Shown here: positions 2,206 through 7,458 of the stretch, one piece after another
How the letters are laid out: each line of letters begins with the position of its first letter
How positions within the stretch are numbered: the stretch's first letter is position 1
Assembly: GCA_035702555.1 (NCBI GenBank)
Contig: DASSQK010000017.1
Coordinates: 1-30,960 of the forward strand
From: Gaiellaceae bacterium
GTDB lineage: Bacteria > Actinomycetota > Thermoleophilia > Gaiellales > Gaiellaceae
DNA: 30,960 bases
Reading direction: 5' to 3'
The notes under the pieces: generated by a model
What the model was told of the DNA's origin: nothing
The model's input: the letters and a program-made list of their open reading frames with translations, nothing else
Database searches by the model: none
Position numbers and translations under genes: made by a program

Positions 2206-4143
2206 TCAGGGCCCGGCGGCCGCCGCGATCTCGTCCAGCGTCTCCGGGTTCTCAAGCGACGAGAGGTCGCCGGGATCCGTTCCCAGCGCCTTCGCGCGGA
2301 CGGCGCGGCGGACGATCTTCGCGCTGCGCGTCTTCGGCAGCGCCGAGACGAACAGCACGCGCTCCGGCGCGAACGCCTTGCCGAGCGCGGACGCGGCGAG
2401 CGCGCGCAGCTCGGCCGCCAGCTCCTCGCCCGGCTCCTCGCCCGGCACGAGCGCGCAGAACACCCAGGCCACCTCGCCCTTCACCTCGTGCGGCACGCCC
2501 ACCGCGGCGGCCTCGGCGACCGCCGGGTGCGCGACGACCGCCGACTCGAGCTCGGCGGGCCCGACCCGCTTCCCGGCGATGTTGAGCGTGTCGTCGGAGC
2601 GCCCGTGCAGGAACCAGTAGCCGTCCTCGTCCACGGAGGCCCAGTCGCCGTGCACCCAGATTCCGGGGAGGCGCCGCCAGTAGGCGTCGAGGTACCGCTC
2701 GGGATCGCCCCAGAACCCCCGCGTCATCCCGGGAAATGGCTTGCGGCAGACCAGCTCGCCGACCTCGCCGCGGATCGACCGGCCCTCGGCGTCGACGACG
2801 TCCATCGCCATCCCCAGCGCAGGCCCGCCCAGCGAGCAGGTCTTGATCGGCGCCGCCACGGTTGGCGAGAGGAAGCACGCGCCGACCTCGGTGCCGCCGG
2901 AGCAGTTGATGATCGGGCAGCGCCCGCCGCCGACGTGCTCGAACAGCCAGCGGTAGGGATCCGGGTTCCACGGCTCGCCGGTGGTGACGAGCACGCGCAG
3001 GGAGGACACATCGTGCCGCTCGACGAGCTCTGCGCCGTGCGGGATCAGCGCGCGCACGAGCGTGGGCGAGAGGCCGAGGATCGAGACGCGCTCCCGCTCG
3101 ACGAGCCCCCACAGCCGATCCGCCGCCGGCCAGTCCGGCGCGCCCTCGTTGAACACGATCGTGCAGCCGAGGGCCATCCCGCCGACCACCTCCCACGGCC
3201 CCATGATCCAGCCCATGTCCGTGACGAAGTCGATGACGTCCTCGGGCCGCGCGTCCGCCTGGTAGGCGACCTCCCGGGTGATCGAGACGAGGAAGCCGCC
3301 CTGGACGTGCAGCACGCCCTTCGGCGCGCCGGTCGTGCCCGACGTGTAGGTGAGCAGGTACGGGTGCTCGGAGTCGACCTCGAGCGGCGGCAGCTCGCCG
3401 GGCGCGTCGGCGACGGCCTCGTCCCACCAGACGTCGCGGCCGCCCTGCATCGGGGTCTCCGCGCCGCGGCGCCGCCAGACGACGACGTGCTCGACCGACG
3501 GCGACACCTCGAGCGCCTCGTCGACCAGCGACTTCATCGGCACCTCGCGTCCGCGCCGTAGGGATGCGTCCGCCGTGACGACGACCTTCGCCTCGGCGTG
3601 CTGTAGCCGCGCCGCGATCGCCGGAGCCGCGAAGCCGGAGAAGATCGGCACCTGCACCGCCCCGAGATGCGCGCAGGCGTGGGAGGCGATCGCGACCTCG
3701 GGCGACATCGGCAGGAAGATCGCGACCCGGTCGCCCGACTGCACGCCGAGCGCGGCGAGCGCCTCGGCCAGCCGCGTCACCTCGCGGGAGAGCTCCCGGT
3801 ACGAGAGCGAGCGCCGCTCGCCGTCCTCGCTCTGCCAGACGGCGGCCGCCGCGTCGGCGCGCTCGCCCTGGGCCCAGCGGTGCACGCAGTTCCAGGCGAC
3901 ATTGAGCCGCCCGCCCACGAACCACGTCGCCCACTCGGGGCCGCGCGAGAGGTCGACCACCTCGTCCCAGGGCCGCGAGAACTCGAGGCCCATGTCCTCG
4001 ATTGCGGCCGGCCAGAACCGCTCGGGCTCCTCCTGCGAGAAGCGCACGAGCGAGGCGTAGTCGTCGAAGCCGAGCGACCGCGCGAGCCGCAACGCGTTCG
4101 AGCGCTCGCGCACCTCGTCGCTCGGGCGCCAGATCACCTCCAC
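2206..4143 (-). CDS. Acyl-CoA synthetase (acetate/acetoacetate-CoA ligase-like, ANL family)
   Basis: YTSGTTGAPKG, TGEPWNP, CSGGTE, GRSDDTLNIAGKRVGPAELE and LPKTRSAK motifs. GTG 4143 has TACGCT 7 nt upstream; the track extension to 4776 overlaps the MFS gene. Confidence 0.9.
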   Translation of the reverse strand: MEVIWRPSDEVRERSNALRLARSLGFDDYASLVRFSQEEPERFWPAAIEDMGLEFSRPWDEVVDLSRGPEWATWFVGGRLNVAWNCVHRWAQGERADAAAAVWQSEDGERRSLSYRELSREVTRLAEALAALGVQSGDRVAIFLPMSPEVAIASHACAHLGAVQVPIFSGFAAPAIAARLQHAEAKVVVTADASLRRGREVPMKSLVDEALEVSPSVEHVVVWRRRGAETPMQGGRDVWWDEAVADAPGELPPLEVDSEHPYLLTYTSGTTGAPKGVLHVQGGFLVSITREVAYQADARPEDVIDFVTDMGWIMGPWEVVGGMALGCTIVFNEGAPDWPAADRLWGLVERERVSILGLSPTLVRALIPHGAELVERHDVSSLRVLVTTGEPWNPDPYRWLFEHVGGGRCPIINCSGGTEVGACFLSPTVAAPIKTCSLGGPALGMAMDVVDAEGRSIRGEVGELVCRKPFPGMTRGFWGDPERYLDAYWRRLPGIWVHGDWASVDEDGYWFLHGRSDDTLNIAGKRVGPAELESAVVAHPAVAEAAAVGVPHEVKGEVAWVFCALVPGEEPGEELAAELRALAASALGKAFAPERVLFVSALPKTRSAKIVRRAVRAKALGTDPGDLSSLENPETLDEIAAAAGP

Positions 4144-4185: not shown

Positions 4186-5616
4186 ATGCGCTCGCGGATC
4201 TTCGCGGAGGAGAACAGGAAGTGGTGGACGCTGGGGTCGCTCTGCTTCGCCCTGTTCATGATCATGCTCGACAACACCGTCGTGAACGTCGCGCTCCCGG
4301 CGATCAAGGCCGACCTCGGCATCAGCACCTCTGAGCTCGAGTGGACGGTCGCGGCCTACGCCCTCACCTTCGCGTCGCTCCTGCTCACCGGCGGCAAGCT
4401 GGGCGACCTGCTCGGTCGGCGGTTGATCTTCGTGATCGGCCTCACGATCTTCACCCTCTCTTCGCTCGCCTGCGGCCTCTCCTCGAGCGCACCCGAGCTG
4501 ATCGGGGCCCGTGCGGTCCAGGGAATCGGCGCCGCGCTGATGATGCCGGCGACGCTCTCGATCATCTCGGCGACGTTCGCGGTGCGCGAGCGCGGCACCG
4601 CGATCGGCATCTGGGCCGGCGTCTCGGCGATGGCGCTCGCGATCGGGCCGCTGCTCGGCGGGCTGATCACCGAGCACATCTCGTGGAACTGGATCTTCTA
4701 CGTCAACGTCCCGATCGGCGTGCTCGCCGTCGTGTCGGCGTTCGTGGTCGTCCCGGAGTCGCGCGACACTTCGCACGAGCAGCGGCTCGACCTCCCCGGC
4801 CTGCTGACGTCCGGGGTCGGCCTCTTCGCGCTCGTCTACGCGCTGATCGAGGCAAACAACTACGGCTGGGGATCAGCTCGCATCCTCGGCCTGTTCGTGG
4901 TGGCCGTGGTCTGCCTGAGCGCCTTCGTGCTCCTCGAGCTGCATCAGCGCCTGCCGCTCCTCGACCTCTCGCTCTTCCGCAGCGGAACTTTCGCCGGCGC
5001 GAACCTGGTCGCGATCCTCGTCACGCTGGCGATGTTCGGGATCTTCGTCTTCTTCCCGATCTACATGCAGACCTTCCGCGGCTGGTCGCCGACCCAGGCC
5101 GGCGCGGCGCTGCTGCCGTGGACGCTGATGGTCGTGATCTTCGCCCCGATCGCCGGGAAACTCTCGGACCACGTCGGCTCGCGCTGGCTGATCTCCGGCG
5201 GGATGTCGGTCGTCGCGATCTGCTGCCTCTGGCTCTCGACCGTGACGGTGGACTCGTCCTTCTGGCACATGCTTCCCGGCTTCATCCTCGGCGGCCTCGG
5301 GATGTCGTTCGTGATGACGCCGATGTCCGCGGCGGCGATGGGCGCAGCCCCGGTCGCCAAGGCCGGCGTCGCGTCCGGCGTCCTGAACACGTTCCGCCAG
5401 GTCGGCGTCGCGCTCGGAATCGGGATCACGGGCGCGATCGTCGCGAACCGTGCGGCTGCGTACGGCAGCCCGCCGCCGCAGGCGTTCGTCTACGGCCTCA
5501 CCTTCGCCATGAAGGTCAGCGCAGGGATCTGCCTCGGCGGCGCGATCGCGGCAGCAGTCCTGATCCGCCGCTACCGCCACGCCGAGTCGAGCCAGCCCGC
5601 CGAAGTAGCCGCGTAA
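4186..5616 (+). CDS. DHA2-type (EmrB/QacA family) MFS efflux transporter
   Basis: MIMLDNTVVNVALP motif, GKLGDLLGRR (motif A), GPLLGG, many hydrophobic segments. ATG 4186 has TACCTT 6 nt upstream. Confidence 0.92.
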   Translation: MRSRIFAEENRKWWTLGSLCFALFMIMLDNTVVNVALPAIKADLGISTSELEWTVAAYALTFASLLLTGGKLGDLLGRRLIFVIGLTIFTLSSLACGLSSSAPELIGARAVQGIGAALMMPATLSIISATFAVRERGTAIGIWAGVSAMALAIGPLLGGLITEHISWNWIFYVNVPIGVLAVVSAFVVVPESRDTSHEQRLDLPGLLTSGVGLFALVYALIEANNYGWGSARILGLFVVAVVCLSAFVLLELHQRLPLLDLSLFRSGTFAGANLVAILVTLAMFGIFVFFPIYMQTFRGWSPTQAGAALLPWTLMVVIFAPIAGKLSDHVGSRWLISGGMSVVAICCLWLSTVTVDSSFWHMLPGFILGGLGMSFVMTPMSAAAMGAAPVAKAGVASGVLNTFRQVGVALGIGITGAIVANRAAAYGSPPPQAFVYGLTFAMKVSAGICLGGAIAAAVLIRRYRHAESSQPAEVAA

Positions 5617-5620
5617 AACC

Positions 5621-5663
5621 AAAAGAAAAGCCCCCGGCTGCGGCTCCGGGGGCTTCTGATTTT
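5621..5663. terminator. Bidirectional intrinsic terminator
   Basis: 10-bp perfect stem AAGCCCCCGG (5628-5637) / CCGGGGGCTT (5646-5655). Flanked by AAAAGAAA on the left (U-tract for the minus strand) and CTGATTTTT on the right (weaker U-tract for the plus strand). Confidence 0.85.
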
Positions 5664-5797
5664 TGCGGGCCTTGCTGAGAGGCGACGACCCGGAGGCCTT
5701 GGCTCTGCGGCCCAGCCACAACCTCCGGGCCATCGTCGCCTTTCTTTGGCGCGCCCCTTGCATCCCCTAAGCCTGGCGTCCGGCTGGGCTGCAAGGT
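5621..5797 (-). ncRNA. Candidate structured non-coding RNA, family not recognised
   Basis: Lies between a TTGACT-N17-TATAGT promoter and a U-tailed terminator on the same strand. Contains two hairpins and no ORF that stops before the terminator. The 5' end is estimated. Confidence 0.55.
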
Positions 5798-5803
5798 GGA
5801 CGG

Positions 5804-5832
5804 ACTATAGACCCGCCTCCGGGATCAGTCAA
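5804..5832 (-). promoter_or_regulatory. Sigma70/HrdB-type promoter (-35 TTGACT, 17 nt, -10 TATAGT)
   Basis: Plus-strand AGTCAA at 5827-5832 and ACTATA at 5804-5809, spacer exactly 17 nt. Confidence 0.8.
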
Positions 5833-5927
5833 GTACCTCGGTCAAGTGATTTTCGAACAAGGAAGTTGACCCGTTTTTCGCTGAAACATGACCAATTTGA
5901 GGGATATCGCACAACGGTCCCTTGCGC

Positions 5928-5953
5928 CGAAGTGAAGTATTCGTTTCACTTCG
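5928..5953 (+). promoter_or_regulatory. Perfect 9-bp inverted repeat (operator or 5'UTR hairpin) next to the RBS of the HTH-TPR gene
   Basis: CGAAGTGAA (5928-5936) - 8 nt - TTCACTTCG (5945-5953); AGGAG RBS at 5956-5960. Confidence 0.5.
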
Positions 5954-5964
5954 CCAGGAGTCGT

Positions 5965-7314
5965 ATGCCCCGCGCTTCAGTAACGCATCAGATCCGCACC
6001 GCCGCCACCCCGGGCAGCGCCCGGCTGGGCGAGCGCGTGCGGCAGCTGCGGGTCGCGGCCGGCCTCACGCAGACCGATCTCGCCGGCGACCGGTTCTCCA
6101 AGGAATACGTCAGCCAGATCGAGCGCGGAAAGACCAGGCCCACGCGCGAGACGATCGAGTGGCTGGCCGCGAAGCTCGGCGTCGATGCCGCCTTCCTCGA
6201 GAAGGGCGTCTCCGCCGACGAGCGCAGCCGGGTCGAGGCGATGCTCGCGCGCGCGGAGGCGCTCGCGAACAACCACCAGTACGCCGAGGCGGTCGAGGAG
6301 CTCGAGAGCTCCCGCACCGCCGTCCTCGCGACCGGCGCCGTCGAGCTCGAGGTTCGCGCGCTGCAGACCGAGGCGTGGGCGCGGATGGAGCAGGGCCAGC
6401 TCCGGCCGGCGCTGCAGCTGCTGGAGCGCTGCCGCACGTTCGCCGAGGGGCCCGGCTTCTCGGATGTCGACCGCGCGCAGGTGCTCTTCCGCATGGGCGT
6501 CTGCCGGTACCACCTCTCGAGCATCGCGTCGGCGGTCTCGCTCTTCAGCGAAGCCCTGAAGCTGGCCGAGGCCTCGCAGCTCCCCTGTGACCTGCTGCGC
6601 GGCGACATTCTCGGCTGGCGCTCCCGGTGCTACCGCCGGCAGCGCGACTTCGAGGCCGCGCGCGAGGACGTCGAGCGCGCGCTCGAGCTGGCGCAGGCGC
6701 TGGACGACCACCGCACGATGGCGAACGTCTACTTCCAGGCCTCGCTCGTCGCCGAGCGAATGGGCCACTGGGTGCTCGCGCGCAGCTATGCGGAGCGGGC
6801 GAAGGCCTACTACGAGCAGATCAACGACGAGCGGAACGTCGGCCGCCTGCTGAACAACCTCGGCGGCCTGAACTTCCAGCTCGGGAAGCCGGATCGCGCC
6901 GTCGAGGATCTGAAGAGCGCGTACCGCGTGCTGCTCGACAAGGGCAGCGACGCCGAGGCGGCCAACGTCGTCTCGTCGCTCGCACACGTGCACCTGGCGA
7001 CGGGCCAGGTGGAGGCGGCCGAGGAGGAGGCGCGTCACGCGCTCGACCTGCTCGAAGGCCGCGAAGACTTCCTGCTCGACATCGCTCCGACCCAGCTGGT
7101 GCTGGGGCGAGCGCTGATGGAGCAGGGACGCCTCGACGAGGCGCAGGAGATGCTGCGCACCGCCGAGGCAAGCGCAGAGCAGCTGGAATCGATCAGCCAC
7201 CGCGCCGCCGCGTGGATGGCACAGGGCGACCTCGCCGCCCGCCTGGGCGAGGATGCGACGGCCGCGCGCCTATACCGCAAGGCCGCCGAAGCTCTCCAGG
7301 ATGTCCGCTTCTAA
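5965..7314 (+). CDS. XRE-family HTH + TPR-repeat transcription regulator (RRNPP-like architecture), 449 aa
   Basis: N-terminal HTH LGERVRQLRVAAGLTQTDLAGDRFSKEYVSQIERGKTRPT, followed by repeated TPR-like helix pairs (e.g. GRLLNNLGGLNFQLGKPDRAVEDLKSAY). ATG 5965 with AGGAG 4 nt upstream. Confidence 0.92.
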   Translation: MPRASVTHQIRTAATPGSARLGERVRQLRVAAGLTQTDLAGDRFSKEYVSQIERGKTRPTRETIEWLAAKLGVDAAFLEKGVSADERSRVEAMLARAEALANNHQYAEAVEELESSRTAVLATGAVELEVRALQTEAWARMEQGQLRPALQLLERCRTFAEGPGFSDVDRAQVLFRMGVCRYHLSSIASAVSLFSEALKLAEASQLPCDLLRGDILGWRSRCYRRQRDFEAAREDVERALELAQALDDHRTMANVYFQASLVAERMGHWVLARSYAERAKAYYEQINDERNVGRLLNNLGGLNFQLGKPDRAVEDLKSAYRVLLDKGSDAEAANVVSSLAHVHLATGQVEAAEEEARHALDLLEGREDFLLDIAPTQLVLGRALMEQGRLDEAQEMLRTAEASAEQLESISHRAAAWMAQGDLAARLGEDATAARLYRKAAEALQDVRF

Positions 7315-7332: not shown

Positions 7333-7458
7333 ATGAACAAGGCTCGCCTGATCTCCCTGACGGTCACCCTCTCCATGCTGGCCTTCTACCTCGAGGGCTT
7401 CGCCCGCGGCTGCGGTTTCTTCTTTGGCCACGGCGGCAGCTGGTTCGACGGGCACTAG
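7333..7458 (+). CDS. 41-aa small peptide with signal-peptide-like N-terminus; putative signalling pro-peptide (not in ORF track)
   Basis: RBS AAGGAGGTG ends 2 nt before ATG 7333; stop TAG 7456-7458. Sequence MNKARLISLTVTLSMLAFYLEGFARGCGFFFGHGGSWFDGH. Mostly G/C third codon positions; downstream hairpin. Confidence 0.8.
   Translation: MNKARLISLTVTLSMLAFYLEGFARGCGFFFGHGGSWFDGH

What the first reader, a model, noticed from the sequence alone, without database searches (positions are those of the whole stretch)
5621..5832. Stand-alone ~175-nt structured RNA transcribed divergently from the HTH-TPR gene
Seen on the minus strand: TTGACT-N17-TATAGT promoter; 5' hairpin CCUUGCA...AGCC-GGACGCCA-GGCU...UGCAAGG; long hairpin AGGCGACGA-CCCGGAGG-UU-UGGCU...AGCCA-GG-CCUCCGGG-UCGUCGCCU; then a terminator with UUUUCUUUU. 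The two internal UU/GG pairs are G-U wobbles only on the minus strand, which supports that strand as the folded one. No ORF ends inside the unit. I cannot assign it to tmRNA, SRP, RNase P, 6S or a riboswitch, and nothing coding lies downstream of it. Established: the arbitrium system pairs AimR/AimP with a regulated RNA (AimX). Inference: this RNA may be the output of the neighbouring receptor/peptide pair.
Basis: partly seen in the sequence, partly recalled or inferred. Interest (0 to 1): 0.7.

Follow-up and report, generated by a model that had tools for sequence, protein, structure and literature searches.

The report
Regulator-coupled small RNA of Gaiellaceae
This is a real, uncatalogued non-coding RNA gene of about 177 bases in uncultured soil actinobacteria (Gaiellaceae) that always lies back-to-back with a peptide-sensor-type regulator and its mini-peptide gene, so it is probably that signalling module's output, although its target is still unknown.

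Summary
On the minus strand, a near-consensus promoter (TTGACT-N17-TATAGT) drives about 177 nt of RNA: a 5' hairpin, a long hairpin, and a terminator hairpin with a U-run. No Rfam family matches, and 6S RNA lies elsewhere in relatives.

The RNA is found in 126 of 151 genomes of the family (75 of 89 genera), essentially once per genome. It was not found in 105 genomes of four sister families. 31 of 42 base pairs show compensatory changes. G-U pairs outnumber A-C 71 to 18, which fixes the strand. There is no conserved ORF.

In every locus examined the RNA is divergent from a conserved XRE-HTH+TPR gene, which is followed by a 31-60 codon export-type peptide gene. Paralogous modules keep all three parts. 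The sister family has the same layout with a different structured RNA.

Best reading: a trans-acting sRNA that is the direct transcriptional output of this RRNPP-like receptor/peptide module. The logic resembles agr-RNAIII or AimR-AimX, but this is an analogy, not membership.

The target is unknown. The invariant loops GACGCCA and GGGCCGCAG recur fused in a second RNA element. GCCGCA is complementary to the loops of a third, multicopy sRNA family.

Expression and peptide signalling are untested. The scan found this RNA family earlier in other genomes.

The parts
5621..5797 (-). The sRNA itself, about 177 nt. The 5' end (A5797, 7 nt after the -10 box) is predicted. The 3' end is the end of the U-run.
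   Evidence: The covariance models match 5619-5803. 31 of 42 pairs show compensatory changes.
5804..5832 (-). Promoter TTGACT-N17-TATAGT. The -35 box lies inside the second ACTTGAC repeat (5834-5828).
   Evidence: Nearly invariant across about 27 genera.
5840..5871 (-). Candidate operator: inverted repeat GGTCAACT-N16-ACTTGACC, spanning about -74 to -43 relative to the predicted start.
   Evidence: Both arms are conserved across the family while the spacer varies. The same repeat with a 17-nt spacer is present in the sister family, by my count in one locus, L099. That the regulator binds here is inference.
5929..5952 (.). Palindrome GAAGTGAA-N8-TTCACTTC just upstream of the HTH-TPR start. It is a candidate autoregulatory operator built from the same GT(C/G)AA / TT(C/G)AC core.
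   Evidence: conserved block. Function is inferred.
5756..5796 (-). P1, the 5' hairpin. Its loop holds the near-invariant GACGCCA (GGACGCCA at 5781-5774).
   Evidence: helices 1 and 2: 9 of 11 pairs with changes on both sides.
5748..5755 (-). Conserved palindromic linker GGCGCGCC between P1 and P2, probably unpaired.
   Evidence: An alternative pairing that uses it has no covariation support.
5681..5740 (-). P2, the long hairpin. Its apical loop GGGCCGCAG (5713-5705) is invariant in all 36 aligned homologues.
   Evidence: helices 3-5: 13 of 21 pairs with changes on both sides. The loop is kept in paralogous modules.
5621..5655 (-). Intrinsic terminator: stem 5655-5646 / 5637-5628, conserved loop AGCCGCAG (5645-5638), then the U-run.
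   Evidence: helix 6: 9 of 10 pairs with changes on both sides.
5965..7314 (+). XRE-HTH + TPR regulator (449 aa), divergent partner of the RNA.
   Evidence: Pfam HTH_31 and TPR_12 among others. Orthologue is adjacent in 30 of 30 loci. AF2 model pLDDT 91.3. Rap and PlcR give the best TM-scores among the listed PDB matches.
7333..7458 (+). 41-codon gene for an export-type pro-peptide with a conserved C-terminal SWFDGH-type tail.
   Evidence: An equivalent ORF starts 7-31 nt after the regulator's stop in 12 of 12 genera, in 12 of 12 sister-family loci, and in 3 of 3 paralogous modules.

Best explanation
The stretch is a stand-alone gene for a structured, non-coding regulatory RNA of about 177 nt. 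It is specific to the family Gaiellaceae.

It forms one module with the divergent XRE-HTH+TPR regulator and that regulator's downstream pro-peptide gene.

Proposed mechanism:
1. The regulator binds the conserved GTCAA/TTGAC-type repeats in the shared intergenic region. One inverted repeat lies just upstream of, and a further half-site overlaps, the sRNA's -35 box. Another palindrome lies at the regulator's own promoter.
2. Through these sites the regulator sets transcription of the sRNA.
3. Its TPR domain senses a ligand, most likely the matured C-terminal piece of the adjacent secreted peptide.
4. The sRNA then acts in trans through its invariant exposed sequences: P1 loop GACGCCA, P2 apical loop GGGCCGCAG, terminator loop GCCGCAG, and linker GGCGCGCC.

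Shown here: the RNA gene and its structure, strand, distribution, synteny, and co-duplication with the module.

Inferred: binding of the regulator to these sites, the sign of control, peptide sensing, trans action, and the target.
For: - Gene anatomy and fold.
- No known RNA family.
- Distribution: 35 of 36 genomes of the genus by BLAST. 126 of 151 genomes and 75 of 89 genera of the family by covariance model, essentially one copy each. 42 of 45 family genomes against 0 of 105 in four sister families.
- Structure: 96.1% of cells paired, 31 of 42 pairs and 119 cells with changes on both sides, reached by 0 of 500 shuffles, and slid controls far lower.
- Strand: G-U 71 against A-C 18.
- No conserved ORF.
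- Synteny: the regulator's orthologue (60-89% identity) is adjacent and divergent in 30 of 30 loci.
- Co-duplication: second regulator copies in one genus carry their own RNA hairpin with the same apical loop and their own peptide with a different tail, GFPDGP.
- Sister family: the regulator's orthologue (42-47% identity) has the same ACTTGAC-type promoter and operator blocks, a divergent structured RNA of about 175-200 nt with a different sequence, and a peptide ending RGFH(E/Q)W.
- The promoter and repeat blocks are conserved across about 27 genera while the spacers vary.
Against: - There are no expression data. The metagenome collection searched holds only contigs of 1 kb or more. An earlier scan note calls the RNA highly expressed, but I could not check that.
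- No target was found. The module's own mRNA shows no consistent pairing site. The 63%-complete genome holds no long complement of the loops.
- A near-consensus promoter needs no activator, yet the inverted repeat sits where class I activators bind. The sign of control is therefore open.
- The alignment used for pair counts was fitted to the model's structure, which leans towards that structure.
- The regulator's TPR fold matches generic TPR proteins at least as well by E-value as it matches RRNPP receptors.
Confidence: 0.62

Rival explanations
1. It is a regulator-independent, constitutively made housekeeping or protein-binding RNA, for example a sequestering or scaffold RNA recognised through its repeated GCCGCAG loops. 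Under this reading its position beside the HTH-TPR gene is conserved for reasons other than direct control, or the control runs the other way and the RNA acts on the module.
For: The promoter is near-consensus and the RNA is family-wide and single-copy, which is a core-gene profile. The loop motifs are invariant across about 75 genera, as expected for a conserved protein or RNA partner. The same motifs recur in a second RNA element elsewhere in the genome.
Against: Paralogous regulator copies take an RNA hairpin with them. The sister family keeps a divergent RNA beside the orthologue even though the RNA sequence has been replaced. Regulator-type repeats flank and overlap the sRNA promoter. All three observations fit direct coupling better.
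Confidence: 0.2
2. It is a cis-acting element rather than a trans-acting sRNA. Options are a divergent promoter-proximal transcript whose synthesis or DNA-level palindromes (GGCGCGCC and the hairpin arms) modulate the regulator's own promoter, or a bidirectional terminator and insulator for the neighbouring genes.
For: The terminator hairpin is also read as a terminator on the plus strand, for the convergent MFS gene. The plus strand folds nearly as well. The two promoters are divergent and share one intergenic region of about 170 bp.
Against: The downstream gene differs between genomes while the RNA stays. The excess of G-U over A-C and the compensatory changes show selection on an RNA of the minus strand. 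The loops, not only the stems, are invariant. The transcript does not overlap the regulator's gene.
Confidence: 0.08
3. It encodes a small protein, or is a dual-function RNA.
For: Open frames of 30-60 codons run through the unit in many homologues.
Against: Start codon, frame and stop are not conserved. Insertions and deletions are not multiples of three. The ATG at 5733 is absent from relatives. Open frames are expected by chance at 72% G+C.
Confidence: 0.03

Closest known systems
RNAIII and the divergent P2/P3 promoters of the Staphylococcus aureus agr locus (from my own knowledge)
   Same: A peptide-signalling operon and a regulatory RNA are transcribed divergently from one short intergenic region that holds repeated regulator sites. 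The RNA is the system's effector and presents repeated conserved motifs in hairpin loops.
   Different: agr uses a membrane histidine kinase, a LytTR response regulator and a thiolactone peptide. Here the sensor is a cytoplasmic HTH-TPR protein with a linear pro-peptide gene. RNAIII is 514 nt and encodes delta-haemolysin, whereas this RNA is about 177 nt with no ORF. There is no sequence or structure homology (Rfam).
Arbitrium AimR-AimP-aimX of SPbeta-group Bacillus phages (RRNPP family; from my own knowledge)
   Same: An HTH-TPR receptor, an adjacent pro-peptide of about 40 aa whose C-terminal residues are the likely signal, and a non-coding RNA as the direct output. The candidate operator is a widely spaced inverted repeat.
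   Different: aimX lies downstream of aimP on the same strand, whereas here the RNA is upstream and divergent. Arbitrium is a phage lysis-lysogeny switch, whereas this is a core, single-copy chromosomal module of a bacterial family. Pfam gave only generic HTH and TPR families, with no AimR-specific match.
PlcR-PapR and NprR-NprX (RRNPP quorum sensing of the Bacillus cereus group)
   Same: XRE-type HTH fused to TPRs, with the pro-peptide gene immediately downstream of the receptor. PlcR's HTH matches by sequence (2qfc, E 7e-4). The PlcR-PapR structures align with TM 0.65-0.66 normalised to the target.
   Different: Those regulators control protein-coding regulons through PlcR or NprR boxes, and no dedicated divergent sRNA is described for them. 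They are Firmicutes, and the large RRNPP survey states that Actinomycetota typically use small-molecule signals (PMC10075063).
Divergent regulator-sRNA pairs of Proteobacteria: OxyR-OxyS, GcvA-GcvB, SgrR-SgrS, LuxO-Qrr1 (from my own knowledge)
   Same: The sRNA gene lies back-to-back with the transcription factor that controls it. The sRNA is a terminator-ended, trans-acting RNA of about 100-230 nt.
   Different: The regulator families differ (LysR, SgrR, NtrC types), the targets act through Hfq, and the phylum differs. No peptide gene is attached.

Membership tests
Any Rfam 15 family (6S, tmRNA, SRP, RNase P, riboswitches, 6C and others) | Match to the family's covariance model at its gathering score | tested here: not met
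   There are 0 matches at gathering score in the whole window. Only chance-level hits far below cut-off at E up to 10 in 5500-6050. The sister-family and paralogue RNAs also give 0 matches.
6S RNA | Being the genome's 6S gene | tested here: not met
   RF00013 matches a different place in 5 of 5 relatives, 2 of them above the cut-off. In G121 the match is at 2.52 Mb while this RNA is at 1.49 Mb.
Arbitrium (AimR-AimP-aimX) | HTH-TPR receptor followed by a short secreted pro-peptide gene | tested here: met
   Pfam HTH_31 plus TPR families. A conserved 31-60 aa ORF with a basic N-terminus, a hydrophobic stretch and a conserved C-terminal tail lies directly downstream.
Arbitrium (AimR-AimP-aimX) | The RNA output gene lies downstream of the peptide gene on the same strand | tested here: not met
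   The RNA is upstream of and divergent from the receptor in all loci examined.
Arbitrium (AimR-AimP-aimX) | Carried by a phage or prophage | tested here: not met
   It is present once per genome in 75 of 89 genera of one family, with metabolic and transport neighbours in the window. No phage genes were seen among the neighbours scanned.
RRNPP receptors | Receptor fold of the Rap/PlcR/NprR type | tested here: inconclusive
   The AF2 model has pLDDT 91.3. By Foldseek E-value, generic TPR proteins rank first. Among the listed hits the highest TM-scores by both normalisations are phage phi3T Rap with pheromone (0.60 by query, 0.71 by target); RapF (4gyo) and PlcR-PapR score about 0.65 by target, level with the best LGN chains. 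TPR superhelices resemble one another in any case.
RRNPP receptors | The mature peptide is re-imported and binds the TPR domain to switch DNA binding | not testable with these tools
   This needs biochemistry or genetics.
agr / RNAIII | AgrBDCA two-component peptide system and homology to RNAIII | tested here: not met
   There is no Rfam RNAIII match. The adjacent regulator is HTH-TPR, not LytTR plus a histidine kinase. Only the divergent-promoter logic is shared.
Divergent regulator-sRNA pair (OxyR-OxyS type architecture) | sRNA gene back-to-back with a transcription factor, with the linkage conserved | tested here: met
   30 of 30 loci. The paralogues and the sister family keep the arrangement.
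Divergent regulator-sRNA pair (OxyR-OxyS type architecture) | The adjacent factor controls transcription of the sRNA | not testable with these tools
   Only conserved repeat motifs at the promoter can be shown.

The most novel reading that the evidence does not exclude
The RNA is the dedicated effector of a peptide quorum-sensing circuit native to Actinomycetota. It would be an independently evolved counterpart of RNAIII or AimX, driven by an RRNPP-like receptor outside Firmicutes and their phages.

A bolder sub-claim, about 0.1 on its own: its two invariant GCCGCA(G) loops dock by loop-loop kissing onto the UGCGGC loops of a second, multicopy, family-specific sRNA ('RNA-X'). A third element that fuses the RNA's two loop motifs would then compete for the same partner.
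Probability: 0.35. Interest if true: 0.85.

Novelty: new variant of a known kind. Interest (0 to 1): 0.68.

Why it matters
Peptide signalling through cytoplasmic HTH-TPR (RRNPP) receptors is treated as a trait of Firmicutes and their mobile elements. The large RRNPP survey says that Actinomycetota typically use small molecules (PMC10075063).

Here a whole family of abundant, almost uncultured soil actinobacteria carries a conserved three-part module: structured sRNA, receptor and pro-peptide. The module duplicates as a unit, with diverging peptide tails.

If the coupling is real, three things follow:
- It gives a new RNA family to catalogue.
- It gives a defined output reporter (the sRNA promoter) for testing peptide signalling in this lineage.
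- It is a second, independent case of a quorum-sensing system wired to an RNA effector.

The invariant loops and the two further RNA elements that share or complement them point to an RNA network in a group where no sRNA biology is known.

Tried and rejected
1. Known RNA families: rejected.
2. Coding potential: rejected.
3. An alternative three-way-junction fold from RNAalifold, with GGCG/CGCC closing and a small CGCC/GGCG hairpin. It is thermodynamically possible but has 0 compensatory changes, and it breaks where the long hairpin's base is compensated.
4. Homology between the family's RNA and the sister family's RNA. The shared UGGGCCGC is a stem in the sister family, as shown by covariation (CCGGUA/UACCGG variants). 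I therefore treat the two RNAs as analogous, not as shown homologues.
5. Pairing of the P2 loop with the module's own mRNA. The best duplexes fall at different places in each genome, so this is uninformative.
6. A genome-wide search for a long complement of the loop motifs in the 63%-complete genome. Nothing turned up beyond chance. The C75 hit lies in what reads as a coding region on the other strand and carries the sense motif.
7. Expression evidence from public metagenome contigs. The exact 31-mer occurs in 104 stretches of metagenome DNA (mostly soil-type records), all the listed contigs 1 kb or longer, so nothing can be said about transcripts.
8. A pattern search for the fused motif with one mismatch. 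It was too noisy, with control counts similar to the real ones.
9. The literature holds nothing on sRNAs of Gaiella or Thermoleophilia.

Full report
**Where the window comes from.** The window is contig C17 of a 1.88-Mb, 63%-complete metagenome-assembled genome with 72% G+C. Close homologues of its proteins are labelled 'Gaiellaceae bacterium' by NCBI. The organism is therefore an uncultured soil member of Gaiellales (Thermoleophilia, Actinomycetota).

All of the following lie on the minus strand.
- The only sigma-70-like promoter in 5300-6300 is TTGACT-N17-TATAGT at 5832-5804, a 10 of 12 match, where shuffles give 0.0.
- From a predicted start near A5797 the sequence folds into a 5' hairpin P1 (5796-5756, loop GGACGCCA).
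- A palindromic linker GGCGCGCC follows (5755-5748).
- A long hairpin P2 follows (5740-5681, apical loop GGGCCGCAG).
- A variable linker leads to a terminator (5655-5628, loop AGCCGCAG) and a U-run that ends at 5621.
- The fold is stronger than that of shuffles (z = -4.6). The other strand is nearly as good (z = -4.0), so energy alone does not choose the strand.
- Downstream lies the end of a convergent MFS transporter gene. Upstream and divergent lies a 449-aa XRE-HTH+TPR gene.

**It is a gene, and it makes an RNA.**
- BLAST finds the whole intergenic region, about 350 nt, at 77-100% identity in 35 of 36 genomes of the genus. Conservation stops right after the terminator, where the neighbouring genes differ.
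- A covariance model built from the genus (R1) finds one full-length match in 126 of 151 genomes of the family, in 75 of 89 genera.
- A broader model (R2) finds it in 42 of 45 family genomes and in none of 105 genomes of four sister families.
- On 36 homologues from about 28 genera, 96.1% of pair cells are standard pairs. 31 of 42 pairs, and 119 cells, have changes on both sides. No shuffle out of 500 reaches any of these measures.
- Sliding the 3' partners drops pairing to 29-57%.
- The alignment was fitted to the model, which leans towards the structure. Even so, the compensations are plain by eye: CCCGGAGG/CCUCCGGG becomes CCCGGUGG/CCACCGGG or CCCGGAAG/CUUCCGGG. In one genus the base of P2, GGCGAC/GUCGCC, is replaced by CCGGCGAG/CUCUCCGG.
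- G-U pairs outnumber A-C 71 to 18. Together with the promoter and terminator, this fixes the minus strand.
Its conclusion is right, but for other reasons.
- No ORF is conserved in start, frame or end.

**It is not a catalogued RNA.**
- Rfam 15 gives nothing at gathering score in the window, and only chance-level hits at E up to 10.
- 6S RNA is found elsewhere in five relatives.
- Full-text searches found no work on sRNAs of Gaiella or Thermoleophilia.
- The exact 31-mer of P2 occurs in 104 stretches of metagenome DNA, mostly soil-type records. The lineage and the RNA are therefore widespread. The listed contigs are all 1 kb or longer, so they say nothing about transcripts.

**Linkage to the regulator.**
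- In 30 of 30 family-level loci the orthologue of the HTH-TPR gene (60-89% identity, full length) lies adjacent to the RNA and divergent from it.
- The coordinates from the independent RNA and protein searches were adjacent in every case I compared, roughly twenty genomes.
- Three of the 30 loci (L041, L047, L056) come from genomes flagged as unpublished. The result does not depend on them, and they were left out of the structure alignment.
- An earlier scan note said the regulator is followed by a small peptide gene. I checked this myself. In 12 of 12 genera an ORF of 31-60 codons starts 7-31 nt after the regulator's stop. It has a basic N-terminus, a hydrophobic stretch and a C-terminal tail of the type SWFDGH, GFFDGH or GHFDGH.

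**Three observations tie the RNA to this pair functionally.**
- Genomes of one genus have a second regulator copy. Next to it, again divergent, is a second RNA with the same P2 apical loop (UGGGCCGCAGA). It is followed by its own peptide with a different tail, GFPDGP. The module therefore duplicates as a unit and diversifies its peptide.
- In one sister family the regulator's orthologue (42-47% identity, in 43 of 45 genomes) is followed by a peptide ending RGFH(E/Q)W in 12 of 12 loci. It is preceded by a conserved divergent promoter and a structured RNA of about 175-200 nt. That RNA has a different sequence and its own covarying stems. The architecture outlives the RNA's sequence.
- The intergenic region holds conserved repeats with a GT(C/G)AA / TT(C/G)AC core:
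  - an inverted repeat GGTCAACT-N16-ACTTGACC at 5871-5840, whose arms are conserved and whose spacer is free across about 27 genera, and which is present with a 17-nt spacer in the sister family, by my count in one locus, L099;
  - a further ACTTGAC that contains the -35 box;
  - a palindrome at the regulator's own promoter (5952-5929).

**The regulator.**
- Only 278 cluster representatives out of 1.84 billion match at E up to 1e-30. It is a narrow family, present in two families of the order, with distant relatives in a third family of the class.
- The AF2 model is confident (pLDDT 91.3).
- In the PDB search, generic TPR proteins lead by E-value. Among the listed hits the highest TM-scores belong to phage phi3T Rap with its pheromone (0.60 / 0.71); RapF and PlcR-PapR score about 0.65 by target, level with the best LGN chains.
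- By sequence, the PlcR and ComR HTH domains match weakly.
- All this is compatible with an RRNPP-like receptor but does not prove it.

**How it most likely works.**
- My best reading (0.62) is that the RNA is the direct transcriptional output of the receptor/peptide module and acts in trans.
- The layout is a regulatory RNA and a signalling operon diverging from one short control region. That is the logic of agr P2/P3-RNAIII. The divergent transcription-factor/sRNA pairs of Proteobacteria (OxyR-OxyS, GcvA-GcvB, SgrR-SgrS) share it.
- The receptor type and peptide layout resemble PlcR-PapR, NprR-NprX and AimR-AimP, and AimR also drives an RNA.
- These are analogies. The RNA is not a member of any of those families (see the membership table).
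- The sign of control is open. The promoter is near-consensus, which argues for repression. The inverted repeat is centred near -58, where activators sit.

**The target is unknown, but there are leads.**
- The 13-mer CUGGGCCGCAGAG of the P2 loop occurs three times in the genome, where 0.4 is expected.
- One further copy lies in a second conserved non-coding element (C158, about 3560-3720, between two terminators). That element is found in 20 of 24 genomes of the genus.
- Its invariant core, ACCGG(A/C)CGCC-UGGGCCGCAGAG, joins the P1-loop motif and the P2-loop motif of the finding's RNA into one stretch. Two different RNAs thus present the same recognition sequence, which suggests a common partner.
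- Directly upstream of that element lies a third unit, 'RNA-X'. It is about 150 nt, has its own conserved promoter block, is present in 1-7 copies per genome, and occurs in 23 of 45 family genomes. Outside the family it was found in 1 of 105 genomes. Two of the loci in the first RNA-X alignment (L278, L289) are from unpublished genomes and were left out of the model.
- RNA-X's two invariant hairpin loops read GAUGCGGC. Its single-stranded CUGCGGCUC is a 9-nt complement of the sRNA's terminator loop GAGCCGCAG. UGCGGC is the exact complement of the GCCGCA found in both invariant sRNA loops.
- Because all these motifs are invariant, no covariation test between the RNAs is possible. I rate a direct kissing interaction at only about 0.1-0.2.
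- A common protein partner is an equally good reading.

**Verdict.** This is a new RNA family and a new variant of a known regulatory logic, in a phylum and lineage where neither was described.

The same RNA family was flagged and followed up earlier in this scan on other genomes, with concordant conclusions. One of those notes claims high expression, which I could not check.

Noticed in passing
G000 contig C158:3560-3720, minus strand (L237:355-520:-); not in the window: A second conserved non-coding element lies between two tandem terminators. Its invariant core ACCGG(A/C)CGCC-UGGGCCGCAGAG fuses the P1-loop and P2-loop motifs of the finding's RNA. It is found in 20 of 24 genomes of the genus and has no Rfam match.
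   Followed up: partly
G000 contig C158:3711-3860 (-) and C229:3980-4133 (+); not in the window: 'RNA-X' is a multicopy (1-7 per genome), family-specific sRNA-like unit of about 150 nt. It has a conserved promoter block (AGTCAACCG..GGGTGATGGATCAA..CGATACT), two invariant hairpins CCCC-GAUGCGGC-GGGG, a CUGCGGCUCUCUC stretch, and a terminator with loop GGGCGGCGG. It is present in 23 of 45 family genomes and in 1 of 105 outside the family, and has no Rfam match. Its UGCGGC loops complement the GCCGCA loops of the finding's RNA.
   Followed up: partly
window 7333-7458 (+), with equivalents in L086-L097 and L118-L132: The pro-peptide tails differ by lineage: xFDGH in the family, GFPDGP in the paralogous modules of one genus, and RGFH(E/Q)W in the sister family. 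This pattern resembles pherotype diversification.
   Followed up: partly
L098-L109 (sister family, upstream of the regulator's orthologue): A different structured RNA of about 175-200 nt is divergent from the orthologous regulator. It has covarying stems and a long 3' hairpin (loop ACUGGAGCC) without a clear U-run, and has no Rfam match.
   Followed up: partly
Neither covariance model finds a second RNA copy anywhere in this genome; the only other hits are weak opposite-strand echoes of the same locus. It therefore looks like an orphan receptor.
   Followed up: partly
G114, G120 and G244 (family genomes, 97-99% complete): G114 and G120 have the regulator's orthologue but no covariance-model match for the RNA under the strict filters. 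G244 lacks both. The RNA may be diverged or lost there.
   Followed up: no
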